A stretch of DNA of 35,239 nucleotides from a virus (Duplodnaviria; Heunggongvirae; Uroviricota; Caudoviricetes). Where the stretch lies: positions 1 to 35,239 of IMG/VR virus record IMGVR_UViG_2718218139_000010; one strand, written 5' to 3'. Of this stretch, positions 24,001-27,000 are shown piece after piece (the stretch's first letter is position 1; each line of letters opens with the position of its first letter). A program made the position numbers.

Positions 24001-27000
24001 TCCCGCACACTGCCGGAGTATCATGATTTCAGCCCAGCACCACTTCTTCCAGCCACTCACCGCTGCTGCTCTCCGGTCGCGGTAGTATCCCGGAGAATAT
24101 CCCGACACTTGTTCAGCTCCCTCAGCGCGGCGCAGACGCGCTGCCACTTCTGGACATGATTTTTCGCCCGACGCAGTTCGCGGTTTGCCATATGCAGCGA
24201 TGGTAAAACCCGGTAATTCATTCGCTTTTCGGTAAACGACGGCAACGACTGCACAATGTCCGCCACAGTTTCTGTTTTAATATCTTCCTGTGTTGCAGCT
24301 TCCTGTACTGGTAACGCAACGCCGGCTGGCTGAGGAAAGGCTTTGCCATCGGTTTCCGCTACGGCTACGGATGCAGCTTCCGGCTCTGCCGGTAAATCAG
24401 CGCCCGGTATGCAGTAACGAAATTTACCGTTCTGGTTTACGCGTGCCAGCCGCCCCGTGGCGGTTACTACCGCCAGCGTGGAAGCAACCTTGCGAGTGCT
24501 GACACCGAACTTACCCGCCAGTTCCTCACACGTTTTAGCCCCCTCCTGACCGATAAACTCAATCATCATGTCAGCGGTAACTTTTTGTTCGACCTCCCCG
24601 GTCAGCACATCCGGTACTTCAGATTGTGCTGGCTGCTCTTCGGTTACCCCGGATTCACCTTCACCAGCCAGAAACCAGGTGCGACCCGTTTTATCAACAA
24701 CACCATTTCTTTTCAGTTCCCACAGCTCGTTCAGCATTTCTTCGCGACTGATATCAAGTCGCGCAGCCAGCTCTACCGACGTGGCTTTCCCCATTGCTTT
24801 CAGTGCGTCAAAAACAGTCTCCATTAAAATTTCCTCCCGGTAAAAATCACTTCTCAACTCAAACAAAACCAGCCGCTTTCCGGCGTTCATATTCCTGTTT
24901 CAGCAACTCAATTGGTGTTAACCCCGACGGGCGTTTTGGTGCTGCCAGTTGCCGCCGGACTGGCGGAACGCTCAGGCCGTTACCAACATGCTTTGCCCAT
25001 TTCGTCAGCTGCCGTTCCGCAAGCCGTTTTAACTCCCCTTCGGTCATCTGGCGCTCAATCCCCTTTGAACGCATCTCGAGGCAAATGTGATACAGCACAG
25101 GCTGAGACCACGGATATTTATCGCTTCCGTCGTATCGCCAGGACTCGTTGCGCCAGCGGCGGTACTCCTCCATCACGGCATCCACCGTCAGACCGAATGG
25201 ATTGGCTCCGCTTTCCGAAATCAGCGCCACAAACTCAGCCAGGTCCGGAGGCCATGTTTCACCCGCCCGGCAGCGGTCCATGCACTGCCGACAGACCTGT
25301 CGGATTTGCTGCTCAGTCATCGCGCCAATCTGTGCAATCCAGAGCTTCGAAGGTGCGGCCCCGTTCTTCTGGGTCCAGCGGTTCGAATAAACCTCCCCCA
25401 TGAGTTCCCACAGCTTCCAGGCCGTTTCCGTCGCTGATAAATCCGTTTTCACGTTCCCACTGCTCACGTGCTGCCCGAATTTCCTGAACTGCCCGTGATG
25501 CGGTGCCACCTGGTGCTGCTGCATGGTTTACCCCCTTGCTGACAGGTTTAACCTGTGCCCTGACGTGATTTACGTGACGGGCGAATTTCTGCTCCCACTG
25601 AACCTGCGTGAACACTTTCCCCTCCGCTGCCCAGTAATCCCGGAAGGCGGCAAGTTCAGCAGGTGTAAATTCTGGTTCCGGCAGAGCCACTCCCCACAGT
25701 GCAGCCCGTCGTCGAAAATCCGGCGACGGATGCCAGCCATCGGTCATCGGAAATTTCCCGATGGGTTCGCTCAGGCCTTCCAGGTAATCAGGTTCCGCTG
25801 CCTGCAACGGCACGCCATTCGACTCACTGGCCGGAGCACTCTCGCGCACGCGCGCGTTATGTGTGGGGTTTAATTCTTTATCTGTATCTTTATCTGTCGT
25901 GACTCGTCGTGACATGTCGTGACATATGCGTGACTCGTCGTGACACCCCTCATTCTGTTTTCGTGATTTTTCCCTCTCGCGCTGCGCTCTCTTGCGCTCT
26001 GCCGGGGATTTCGCGGTTTGAGAAACGTTACCGTTGTCCTCTTTCAGTACCTGGCGTTTTTCCCATCCAGAGATTAAATCTCCATCAAGTACCCGCCCCT
26101 GCATTGCCTGTAAAATTGAATCAATTACTTCTTCCGTCACATCAAGCGCACTTGCTAAATCTTCCGTCGTGACATCAATGTGACCACGTAGTGACACGCC
26201 GTGACACGTCGTGACATTTCGTGACGCACTCACCAGAAGGTGGATATACACAGCCATCACTGTTGCGATTGGCTGCCCTGACACCCTGGCAATTGTTCGC
26301 CATTTAGGATCATTTGGCATGTCATGCCATAATCTGAGCCAGGCGTTAGCCATACTCACCTCTTCTGATACTGAATCTTTTTACTCGCAAATTGCCGGAA
26401 GTGATCCGGTATGAATATTGCCAGTCAATGCACAGCTACAATATTTCCTGCCGGGCCACCGCGATTCATCTGATTGAAACCAGCAATTACCACCGCGACA
26501 AGTTCATCAGCGTCTCTCACCAGTCGTTCATGCGTCTCCACCAGTTCCCGAAAATAAGCGGAACTGTGGCTGCGCATCCAGGCCACCAGCGGAGGTGGCA
26601 TTGCCTTTTCGATCGCTGGTAACAACGCCTGAATTTTTTTAACCGCATCAGGGGTGTCTTTCTCCACCCAGCGGAAAATTTTCTGAGTATTGCGAGCCAG
26701 GGCTTCCGGGCGTGAATCGTCGTACAGTTCCGGAAACGTCATTCCCAGTTCAAAATATGCTTTGGTAATCTCTGCAGCCGGTACTTTTTCGCCGTCCGGA
26801 TGCGCCCAGGCATTCATCGCCATGCGGATGTGTTCATGCTTGATTTTCATGAATCAACTCCGGTGCATTTGATGTGTTAACCTTACATCCAACAGGTAAA
26901 CCGTCGGTTGGGTTAGGATAAATATCAGGGCGAATTTCATGCGGGGTAACTTCCCACTTCATTAGCTGACATAACGGAATTACCTGCTTTGGGGGAACGC

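What the first reader, a model, noticed from the sequence alone, without database searches (positions are those of the whole stretch)
25895..26228. Two iteron arrays embedded in the O-like gene mark the replication origin
Five and six copies of a GTGAC-centred repeat at helical (about 10-bp) spacing lie inside the initiator gene. This parallels lambda, where ori lies within O. The second array is spaced at exactly 10 bp.
Basis: partly seen in the sequence, partly recalled or inferred. Interest (0 to 1): 0.5.

Follow-up and report, generated by a model that had tools for sequence, protein, structure and literature searches.

The report
Two-part replication origin inside initiator gene
Two clusters of a six-letter DNA word (GTCACG), next to an easily melted A+T-rich stretch, lie inside a prophage's replication-initiator gene and are kept by selection on the DNA itself, so this is very probably the phage's replication origin: a familiar design, but in a protein family where it seems not to have been described.

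Summary
The repeats are real. On the + strand GTGAC occurs 5 times (25899-25944) and 6 times (26169-26225), against about 0.2 expected. Spacing is 10/10/11/10 and 11/11/10/10/10, so neither array is "exactly 10". Both lie in a 346-aa initiator gene (25313-26353, minus strand). This protein is not a lambda O homologue. It has a DnaD-like winged-helix N-domain, a disordered linker and a DnaT-like C-domain, and a lambda-P-like gene follows it.

The "coding only" rival is rejected. The hexamer GTCACG is read in all three frames. In 21 diverged relatives its synonymous sites are frozen, while neighbouring conserved codons vary freely.

The layout recurs across Proteobacteria: an upstream array in a loop-coding segment, about 190-250 nt, a linker array, then a (GATAAA/GATACA)n tract. 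The iteron word changes between lineages (GTCACG, GTGACG, GTAACG, GCAACG, GAACGC) but matches in both arrays of each element. The tract is the least stable 30-mer of the gene and is also the mosaic junction between N- and C-terminal modules.

Best reading: a lambda-like origin within the gene, in which the linker array plus tract form the core and the upstream array is accessory. Initiator binding is inferred, not shown. I rate it a new variant of a known kind, of moderate interest.

The parts
25313..26353 (-). Replication initiator gene (346 aa from the ATG at 26353; the mechanical ORF starts two codons earlier, at a GTG at 26359). It encodes an N-terminal winged-helix domain, a basic helix, a disordered linker and a DnaT-like C-terminal domain.
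   Evidence: ORF list. PHROG 1408/3729 'replication initiation protein', E 1e-117 and 2e-92. Pfam PF17948 DnaT at aa 203-269, with no Phage_rep_O hit. PDB DnaT C-domain hits, E 1e-20. RefSeq homologue starts at the ATG. NCBI names for homologues are 'phage replisome organizer' and 'DnaT-like ssDNA-binding domain-containing protein'.
26054..26353 (-). Coding region of the N-terminal winged-helix domain (about aa 1-100), the presumed iteron-binding module.
26168..26225 (-). Upstream iteron array ('array N'): 6 direct copies of GTCAC(G) on the gene strand, spaced 10, 10, 10, 11, 11 in gene direction. It codes the loop between helix 3 and the HTH (aa ~43-62, SRNVTTCHGVSLRGHIDVT).
   Evidence: Synonymous sites are frozen in 21 diverged relatives. 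Relatives carry 4 or 6 copies through a 21-bp in-frame indel. The inserted residues 49-55 have pLDDT <50.
25898..25944 (-). Origin-proximal iteron array ('array L'): 5 direct copies of GTCACG, spaced 10, 11, 10, 10 in gene direction. It codes part of the disordered interdomain linker (CHDESRICHDMSRRVT).
   Evidence: The linker is predicted disordered (pLDDT <50 for aa 135-162). Close relatives have 3-9 copies. An array is present at this position in most of the surveyed lineages, 48 of which carry both arrays.
25868..25897 (-). A+T-rich, purine-rich (on the gene strand) tract ACAGATAAAGATACAGATAAAGAATTAAAC, directly 3' of array L. It is the candidate DNA-unwinding element and also the junction of the N- and C-terminal gene modules.
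   Evidence: It is the least stable 30-mer of the gene: -32.7 kcal/mol against a mean of -44.1 +/- 3.4, in the top 1.3% of the window, and 35% GC. The same (GATAAA/GATACA)n tract follows the last iteron in nearly all of the two-array lineages, whatever the iteron class. Codon choice shows DNA-level selection: GAT 142 / GAC 6 in the tract against 216 / 213 elsewhere, and ACA 59 of 76 Thr codons against 45 of 279. Homology breakpoints fall at window 25875-25895.
25553..25753 (-). Coding region of the DnaT-like ssDNA-binding C-terminal domain.
   Evidence: Pfam PF17948, E 3.6e-18, aa 203-269 of the 348-aa ORF. PDB 6aep, 4ou6/4ou7 and 9zbt DnaT, E 1e-20 to 1e-19.
24859..25320 (-). Lambda-P-like helicase-loader gene, overlapping the initiator stop by 8 nt.
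   Evidence: Pfam PF06992 Phage_lambda_P, E 1.6e-16, and PHROG 109 'P-like helicase loader', E 5e-63. RefSeq annotates the homologue as 'replication protein P' with these boundaries. Translation.

Best explanation
This is the vegetative replication origin of a lambdoid E. coli prophage, embedded in the gene of its own initiator.

Proposed mechanism. The initiator's N-terminal DnaD-like winged-helix domain binds the 6-bp iterons (GTCACG). These are direct repeats one helical turn apart, so the bound domains line up head-to-tail on one face of the DNA. The five linker-coding iterons (25898-25944) and the adjoining (GATAAA/GATACA)n tract (25868-25897) form the core origin. Initiator oligomerisation on the array destabilises the tract, which is the least stable DNA in the gene. 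The C-terminal DnaT-like domain then holds the exposed single strand and/or recruits the P-like loader with host DnaB. The six upstream iterons (26168-26225), 229 nt away, are a second binding platform for the same protein. They probably act as an accessory element, either a cooperative looping enhancer or a titrating, auto-regulatory site.

Shown here: the repeats exist and are non-random; they are selected at the DNA level; the architecture and the tract are conserved; the two arrays change in concert; the arrays travel with the N-domain; and the tract has low duplex stability.

Inferred: that the N-domain is the binder, that the tract melts, what the DnaT-like domain does, and what the upstream array does.
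For: 1. Non-random repeats: 11 same-strand copies against about 0.2 expected, and chains of 6 and 5 against a maximum of 3 in 200 simulations.

2. DNA-level selection: the synonymous positions of the hexamers are invariant in 21 genes at 55-75% protein identity, while V32, T20, P28, R19 and others use 4-6 codons and the spacer codon R49 uses 4. The hexamer is read in three frames.

3. Conserved architecture: Pseudomonas and Aeromonas phages (63-67% aa identity) keep both arrays 228-229 nt apart. Of 80 genome loci from Gamma-, Beta- and Alphaproteobacteria and others, 48 have both arrays and most of the rest have the linker array only.

4. Concerted change: the iteron word differs between lineages (GTCACG, GTGACG, GTAACG, GCAACG, GAACGC/AACGC) but is the same in both arrays of an element. 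Independent motif calls agree in 24 of 32 loci, against a permutation mean of 11.7 and a maximum of 18; the other 8 are nearly all register shifts of the same unit. The sister proteins L152/L154 and L167 differ in every copy of both arrays. The same host genus can carry different classes (Acidovorax L102 against L142/L145), so a host-factor site is unlikely.

5. Modularity: the arrays and the N-domain are inherited together. The C-terminal half is exchanged with Rac ydaU-type genes, which lack GTCACG, and with Evi-type genes. The junction lies at 25875-25895, inside the tract.

6. DUE properties of the tract.

7. Context: a cI-like, cro-like, cII/YdaT-like, initiator, P-like gene order as in lambda. 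The N-domain is a winged helix of the DnaD / replisome-organizer type. In SPP1, gp38 likewise binds direct repeats beside an AT-rich DUE inside its own gene (PMC6316719), and lambdoid O genes carry iterons plus an AT-rich tract in mid-gene (PMC7466680).
Against: There is no direct evidence of binding, unwinding or origin firing. In bacterial DnaD the N-terminal winged helix mainly mediates oligomerisation rather than sequence-specific DNA binding, so fold similarity does not prove that this N-domain reads the iterons. I found no specificity-determining residues that covary with iteron class. About 15 lineages lack the upstream array, so it cannot be essential to the mechanism in general. A test for helical phasing between the two arrays across lineages was inconclusive (resultant length 0.27 at 10.4 bp). 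The structure model is only moderately confident overall (mean pLDDT 67).
Confidence: 0.8

Rival explanations
1. The repeats are a translated amino-acid repeat or a low-complexity peptide kept for protein reasons only, with no function at the DNA level.
For: The arrays lie entirely in coding sequence. Some encoded residues (R49, G50, N46) are conserved at the protein level.
Against: The hexamer is read as VT, (C/G)H or SR depending on phase, so there is no peptide repeat. Synonymous sites inside the hexamers are invariant, while those of equally conserved residues outside vary freely. The encoded segments are a low-confidence loop and a disordered linker that tolerate 7-aa indels. Lineages with a different iteron word have correspondingly different peptides.
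Confidence: 0.02
2. The repeats are binding sites for a protein other than the initiator (a host factor, the Cro, cII or YdaT-like regulators, or the P-like protein) and serve regulation rather than origin function.
For: Binding was not tested. The DnaD-type N-domain is not a proven sequence reader.
Against: Across mosaics the only constant partner of the arrays is the N-domain. The upstream and downstream genes differ in Evi, Tritos, the Pseudomonas, Aeromonas and Ralstonia phages. Iteron class does not follow host genus. An adjacent conserved unstable tract is typical of origins.
Confidence: 0.07
3. Only the linker array plus the tract is the origin. The upstream array is a negative control element that titrates or handcuffs the initiator, or blocks transcription of its own gene, as incA/incC-type iterons do in P1 and F plasmids.
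For: The upstream array is missing in about 15 lineages, whereas the linker array and tract are present in most surveyed lineages. Its copy number varies (4 or 6) by 21-bp in-frame steps. It has no adjacent conserved AT-rich tract. In Stenotrophomonas elements it sits in a different loop of the gene, which suggests that the presence of an upstream array matters more than its exact position.
Against: Nothing here distinguishes an activating role from an inhibitory one. The distance is tightly kept (227-231 nt) in the large GTCACG clade, but that may simply reflect a fixed protein length.
Confidence: 0.3
4. The arrays are neutral products of replication slippage or gene conversion in a tolerant part of the gene.
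For: Copy number varies among near-identical prophages (array L 3-9, array N 4 or 6).
Against: Sequence, position and orientation persist across phyla-level divergence with frozen synonymous sites. All copies switch word in concert between sister lineages.
Confidence: 0.02

Closest known systems
Lambda ori within gene O (lambdoid O/P replication module; Pfam Phage_rep_O PF04492)
   Same: The origin lies in the middle of the initiator gene, in the segment coding the interdomain linker. Repeated initiator sites are followed by an A+T-rich tract. The N-terminal half of the gene, together with the iterons, forms the specificity module, and the C-terminal half is exchangeable. A P-like helicase-loader gene follows. 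The module sits downstream of cro- and cII-like genes (PMC7466680).
   Different: There is no sequence homology to O (no PF04492 hit). The iterons are 6-bp direct repeats every 10-11 bp, whereas lambda has four roughly 19-bp repeats with internal dyad symmetry (my own knowledge). There is a second array about 230 nt upstream, inside the DNA-binding-domain coding region. The C-terminal domain is DnaT-like.
Replisome organizers of Gram-positive phages (SPP1 gp38 with oriL; lactococcal Tuc2009/TP901-1 Rep; Pfam PF09681)
   Same: The N-terminal domain is a DnaD-like winged helix. PHROG gives weak 'replisome organizer' matches, and NCBI names homologues 'phage replisome organizer'. In SPP1, gp38 binds direct repeats next to an AT-rich DUE located inside gene 38, and it has a second, separate binding region, oriR (PMC6316719).
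   Different: Pfam PF09681 is not matched at E<=0.01. The hosts are Proteobacteria. The two arrays are about 230 nt apart within one gene, not kilobases apart. The C-terminal partner domains are DnaT-like or other types. The (GATAMA)n tract is specific to this group.
Iteron plasmids and P4 (P1 oriR/incA, F ori2/incC, RK2, R6K; P4 ori/crr)
   Same: These also have two clusters of identical direct repeats for one initiator, one next to the DUE and one at a distance. In those systems the distant cluster acts by looping or handcuffing (my own knowledge; general iteron and DUE principles in PMC10797057).
   Different: Plasmid Rep proteins have two WH domains and 17-22-bp iterons about two helical turns apart. 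Their arrays are intergenic. Here the sites are hexamers one turn apart and are embedded in coding sequence.
Rac prophage ydaU (DnaT-like replication protein; the oriJ region)
   Same: The C-terminal half of the gene is 95% identical, including the GATA tract and the DnaT-like domain.
   Different: Rac-SA53 ydaU has an unrelated N-terminal domain and no GTCACG repeats. Instead, an inverted repeat TGTTCAAACA/TGTTTGAACA lies beside the tract.
E. coli DnaT (PriA-dependent primosome)
   Same: The C-terminal three-helix ssDNA-binding domain is homologous (E 1e-20 to the PDB DnaT C-domains).
   Different: Only that domain matches. The NCBIfam DnaT equivalog scores 97.6 bits against a cut-off of 201. 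The protein is a phage origin-binding fusion, not a restart factor.

Membership tests
Lambda O family (Phage_rep_O, PF04492) | Sequence homology of the initiator's N-terminal domain to lambda O | tested here: not met
   The Pfam scan at E<=0.01 returns only PF17948 (DnaT) for the 348-aa ORF. tblastn of the N-domain against 50,697 phage records finds 26 records, none of them a classical lambdoid phage.
Lambda O family (Phage_rep_O, PF04492) | ori (iterons plus an AT-rich tract) located mid-gene, with a P-type loader gene downstream | tested here: met
   This is an analogy of organisation, not evidence of homology.
Iteron-type, initiator-dependent (theta) origin | Three or more direct repeats of one motif, phased with the DNA helix | tested here: met
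   There are 5 and 6 copies at 10-11 nt. Across lineages the spacing is 10 nt in 175 cases and 11 nt in 34.
Iteron-type, initiator-dependent (theta) origin | An adjacent A+T-rich DNA-unwinding element | tested here: met
   The stretch 25868-25898 is the least stable 30-mer of the gene. The tract is conserved in nearly all of the two-array lineages and shows AT-favouring codon choice. Actual unwinding was not tested.
Iteron-type, initiator-dependent (theta) origin | Iterons specifically bound by the cognate initiator | not testable with these tools
   The support is indirect only: co-inheritance with the N-domain and concerted change of both arrays between lineages.
Iteron-type, initiator-dependent (theta) origin | The segment supports autonomous replication, or maps as the initiation site | not testable with these tools
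   No experimental data were found in six literature searches directed at this.
Phage replisome organizer (DnaD-like N-terminal winged helix; PF09681 and related) | An N-terminal winged-helix domain of DnaD-NTD type | tested here: met
Phage replisome organizer (DnaD-like N-terminal winged helix; PF09681 and related) | A significant match to the family's sequence model | tested here: inconclusive
   There is no PF09681 hit at E<=0.01. PHROG 4880 and 5968 'replisome organizer' match weakly (E 3e-5 and 7e-4), whereas PHROG 1408 and 3729 'replication initiation protein' match strongly. NCBI names homologues 'phage replisome organizer'.
DnaT (primosomal protein I) | A full-length equivalog match | tested here: not met
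   NCBIfam NF002770 scores 97.6 bits against a cut-off of 201. Only the C-terminal domain (aa 196-280) aligns.

The most novel reading that the evidence does not exclude
The element may be a bipartite origin of a previously undescribed type, widespread in temperate phages of Proteobacteria.

In this reading the second iteron array, written into the coding sequence of the initiator's own DNA-binding domain, loops to the DUE-proximal array or titrates the initiator. That would give a built-in copy-control or firing switch, tunable by 21-bp steps (7 codons, two helical turns).

The universal (GATAMA)n tract would then have three roles at once: unwinding element, possible strand-specific ssDNA landing site for the initiator, and the conserved recombination joint through which specificity (N-domain plus iterons) and loader-recruitment (C-domain) modules are shuffled.

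A stronger version, in which the array-N-encoded loop itself reads the iteron, looks unlikely. L160 has GTCAC iterons but an unrelated loop sequence.
Probability: 0.25. Interest if true: 0.65.

Novelty: new variant of a known kind. Interest (0 to 1): 0.5.

Why it matters
Initiators of this type are common. The gene or parts of it match 2,597 of 5,426 complete E. coli genomes, 657 of them over the full length, including O157:H7 and other STEC strains. Relatives occur across Proteobacteria. Yet I found no description of their origin.

Defining the origin gives several practical handles:
- a sequence signature (xxxACG hexamers at 10-11 nt, followed by (GATAMA)n) for annotating origins in prophages;
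- a prediction of replication-specificity (incompatibility or exclusion) classes from the iteron word;
- a clean natural example of overlapping protein-coding and DNA-binding-site constraints;
- a defined hot spot, the tract, for the modular exchange that builds mosaic lambdoid replication genes.

The conserved second array poses a simple experimental question, enhancer or brake, that synonymous recoding can answer.

Tried and rejected
1. Helical phasing between the two arrays. Across 48 lineages the gap between arrays ranges from 147 to 319 nt, and the resultant length is only 0.27 at a 10.4-bp period. This is inconclusive. The constant 227-231 nt in the GTCACG clade may simply reflect a fixed protein length.

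2. An inverted GTGAC copy 33 nt downstream of array N (window 26136-26140). It is present in four relatives, but its synonymous sites are not frozen, so I treat it as a coding coincidence (the DVT motif).

3. The idea that the array-N-encoded loop is itself the specificity reader. L160 argues against this: it has GTCAC iterons in the linker but an unrelated loop sequence. Array-less lineages argue the same way.

4. A DnaA-trio-like reading of the tract. The triplet pattern does not fit 3'-G/A-A-T-5' repeats (PMC10797057 for the motif). I dropped it as anything more than a loose analogy.

5. A promoter and terminator scan of 25300-27300 gave nothing above shuffled expectation.

6. Specificity-residue covariation. 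I inspected the HTH and wing of sister proteins with different iterons (L120 against L102/L103; L167 against L152/L154) and found no clear determinant.

7. Six of the seven literature searches were directed at an existing description of this origin (iterons with DnaT or replisome organizer, oriJ/ydaU, Stx-phage replication regions, GTGAC with iteron, DnaD-like). None described this origin. Subscription-journal papers are not covered, so prior description cannot be excluded.
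Full report
**The observation.** On the + strand GTGAC starts at 25899, 25909, 25919, 25930 and 25940, and at 26169, 26180, 26191, 26201, 26211 and 26221. 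All copies point the same way. Nine of the eleven carry the full hexamer CGTGAC, which is GTCACG on the gene strand. Outside the arrays the + strand has 22 GTGAC in about 34.9 kb, so about 0.2 copies are expected in the 334-nt interval; 11 are found. Chains of one 5-mer at 10-11 nt spacing reach 6 and 5 copies here and never exceeded 3 in 200 Markov simulations of the window.

**The gene.** Both arrays lie in a minus-strand ORF. The mechanical ORF is 25313-26359, and the RefSeq-style start is the ATG at 26353, giving 346 aa. The order of neighbours is lambdoid: cI-like (27216-27617, +), cro/YdaS-like (26834-27106, -), cII/YdaT-like (26425-26850, -), the initiator, then a lambda-P-like gene (24859-25320, -) that overlaps the initiator stop by 8 nt. 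The protein is not a lambda O homologue: Pfam finds only a DnaT DNA-binding domain at aa 203-269, and this matches solved DnaT C-domains at E about 1e-20. PHROGs classify the protein as a 'replication initiation protein' (1408, 3729), with weak 'replisome organizer' and 'DnaD-like' matches. NCBI names homologues 'phage replisome organizer'.

**Is the repeat merely coding?** No. The hexamer falls in all three codon phases and is translated as VT, (C/G)H or SR, so there is no peptide repeat. I took 21 GTCACG-class genes from different genera (55-75% protein identity, ungapped over the first 258 nt). In these, conserved residues outside the array use all their synonymous codons: for example V32 is GTG 5, GTT 8, GTC 7, GTA 1, and T20 is 4/7/5/5. 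Inside the hexamers the codons are fixed: S44 TCA 20/21, and V47 GTC, T48 ACG, G50 GGT, H51 CAC, V54 GTC and T55 ACG all 21/21. The spacer codon R49 is free (CGA 9, CGC 6, CGT 5, CGG 1).

**Conservation and co-variation.** Phages Evi and Tritos share the N-terminal half of the gene. They have 5 linker copies and 4 upstream copies, and the difference in the upstream array is a 21-bp in-frame indel. Pseudomonas phage phita81A (63% aa identity) and Aeromonas phage pAEv1818 (67%) keep both arrays, the same word and a 228-229-nt gap. A scan of one genome per species returned 80 loci from Gamma-, Beta- and Alphaproteobacteria and a few other phyla.

A de novo search for periodic k-mers found the same plan in most of them: 3-4 copies at gene nt about 129-165 and 3-6 copies at about 340-440. 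The word differs by lineage, and all classes fit the pattern xxxACG: GTCACG, GTGACG, GTAACG, GCAACG, (C)GAACG(C) and AACGC. Within one element the word is the same in both arrays. Motifs called independently in the two regions share a 5-mer in 24 of 32 loci, against a permutation mean of 11.7 and a maximum of 18. The other eight are nearly all register shifts of the same unit.

Three further points bear on interpretation.
- The sister proteins in Cupriavidus and Burkholderia (GCAACG) and in Paraburkholderia (GTGACG) differ in every copy of both arrays.
- One host genus can carry two classes (Acidovorax), which argues against a host-factor site.
- Two Stenotrophomonas elements carry the upstream array in a different loop of the gene (nt 87-107), and about 15 lineages lack it. 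The linker array is present in most of the surveyed lineages.

Among 82 close relatives, array N has 4 or 6 copies and array L has 3-9.

**The A+T-rich tract.** Directly 3' of the last linker iteron, in gene direction, lies ACAGATAAAGATACAGATAAAGAATTAAAC (25897-25868). It is the least stable 30-mer of the gene (-32.7 kcal/mol against a mean of -44.1 +/- 3.4) and falls in the top 1.3% of the whole window (GC profile). A (GATAAA/GATACA)n tract follows the last iteron in nearly all of the two-array lineages, whatever the iteron class and even in GC-rich hosts. Its AT fraction is mostly 0.6-0.85 (0.50-0.85 overall), against 0.33-0.62 for the gene as a whole. Codon choice shows the constraint is on the DNA: Asp is GAT 142 / GAC 6 in the tract against 216 / 213 elsewhere, and Thr is ACA in 59 of 76 codons against 45 of 279. 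This is what a DNA-unwinding element next to iterons should look like.

**Modularity.** Megablast splits the gene at window 25875-25895, inside the tract. The C-terminal half (25313 to about 25895) is 91-96% identical to Rac-type ydaU genes. Their N-terminal domain is unrelated and carries no GTCACG; an inverted repeat lies beside the same tract instead. The N-terminal half (25875-26359), with both arrays, is shared with Evi, Tritos and related phages, whose C-terminal halves and downstream genes differ. The N-domain and its iterons are therefore inherited as one specificity module, and the tract is the joint. This mirrors the classical lambda, phi80 and 82 picture (my own knowledge) and the general description of lambdoid origins in PMC7466680.

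**Mechanism proposed.** The initiator's winged-helix domains bind the hexamers head-to-tail on one face of the helix. The mean spacing across lineages is 10.2 nt. Oligomerisation on array L stresses the adjacent tract, which melts. The DnaT-like domain then binds the single strand and/or brings in the P-like loader with host DnaB. Array N binds the same protein about 230 nt upstream and acts as an accessory element, either a looping enhancer or a titrating, auto-regulatory site. Its absence in some lineages, its relocation in others and its variable copy number all favour an accessory role. The binding, melting and recruitment steps are inferences. One side observation: the in-frame unit of array change seen in close relatives is 21 bp (10 + 11), which is 7 codons and two helical turns. 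A mix of 10- and 11-nt spacings therefore lets an array expand without breaking either the reading frame or the helical phase.

**Comparison with known systems and novelty.** The design is that of lambda ori-in-O, and of the SPP1 and lactococcal replisome organizers, whose origins also lie in their own genes (PMC6316719). The principle is therefore known. What differs is the following:
- the protein family (a DnaD-like winged helix fused here to a DnaT-like domain);
- the site type (6-bp direct repeats one turn apart);
- a conserved second array inside the DNA-binding-domain coding region;
- a tract shared by nearly all lineages that also serves as the recombination joint.

Six literature searches directed at this question found no description of this origin, but the searched library lacks most subscription-journal papers. 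I rate it a new variant of a known kind, of moderate interest (0.5).

Noticed in passing
window 25875-25895; L003 3060-3090: The homology breakpoints between the N-terminal (Evi/Tritos-type) and C-terminal (Rac ydaU-type) halves of the initiator gene fall inside the conserved (GATAMA)n tract. The tract therefore looks like the recombination joint used for module exchange between otherwise unrelated initiator N-domains.
   Followed up: partly
L003 3093-3146 (Escherichia phage Rac-SA53 ydaU): Rac-type ydaU has a different N-terminal domain and no GTCACG repeats. It carries a perfect 10-nt inverted repeat, TGTTCAAACA / TGTTTGAACA, and a 16-nt imperfect one, directly beside the same GATA tract. 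These may be the initiator sites of the Rac origin (oriJ).
   Followed up: partly
L169 4001-5041 (NZ_CP043825.1, E. coli RM8082): RefSeq names the 97%-identical homologue of this initiator 'pyocin large subunit'. Other genomes call it 'DnaT-like ssDNA-binding domain-containing protein' or 'hypothetical protein', so 'pyocin large subunit' is probably an annotation error.
   Followed up: no
window 27645-28123: Two small + strand ORFs (63 aa and 95 aa) lie next to the cI-like repressor gene. By position and size they correspond to the ParD-family antitoxin and RelE/ParE-family toxin pair annotated in L169 (RM8082), so a toxin-antitoxin pair appears to sit inside the immunity region.
   Followed up: no
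L158 and L163 (Stenotrophomonas MAGs), gene nt 87-107: In these elements the upstream GTCACG array sits in a different loop-coding segment (an insertion coding LSRNVTVGHV, between helices 2 and 3) from its position in all other lineages. This suggests independent placement of a second array.
   Followed up: partly
L084 and L111: The arrays can expand markedly. One close E. coli relative (L084) has 9 linker copies. Pseudomonas sp. JAI111 (L111) has a long extra insertion full of iteron-derived peptide (GITCHDMSRENVTNVTFVTCHEINLV) after array N.
   Followed up: no
window 24057-24890 (-): The gene after the P-like gene encodes a 277-aa DUF1627 protein (Pfam E 2e-88) with weak HTH and Ren-like matches. 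Its function is unknown. It begins within the last 32 nt of the P-like gene.
   Followed up: no
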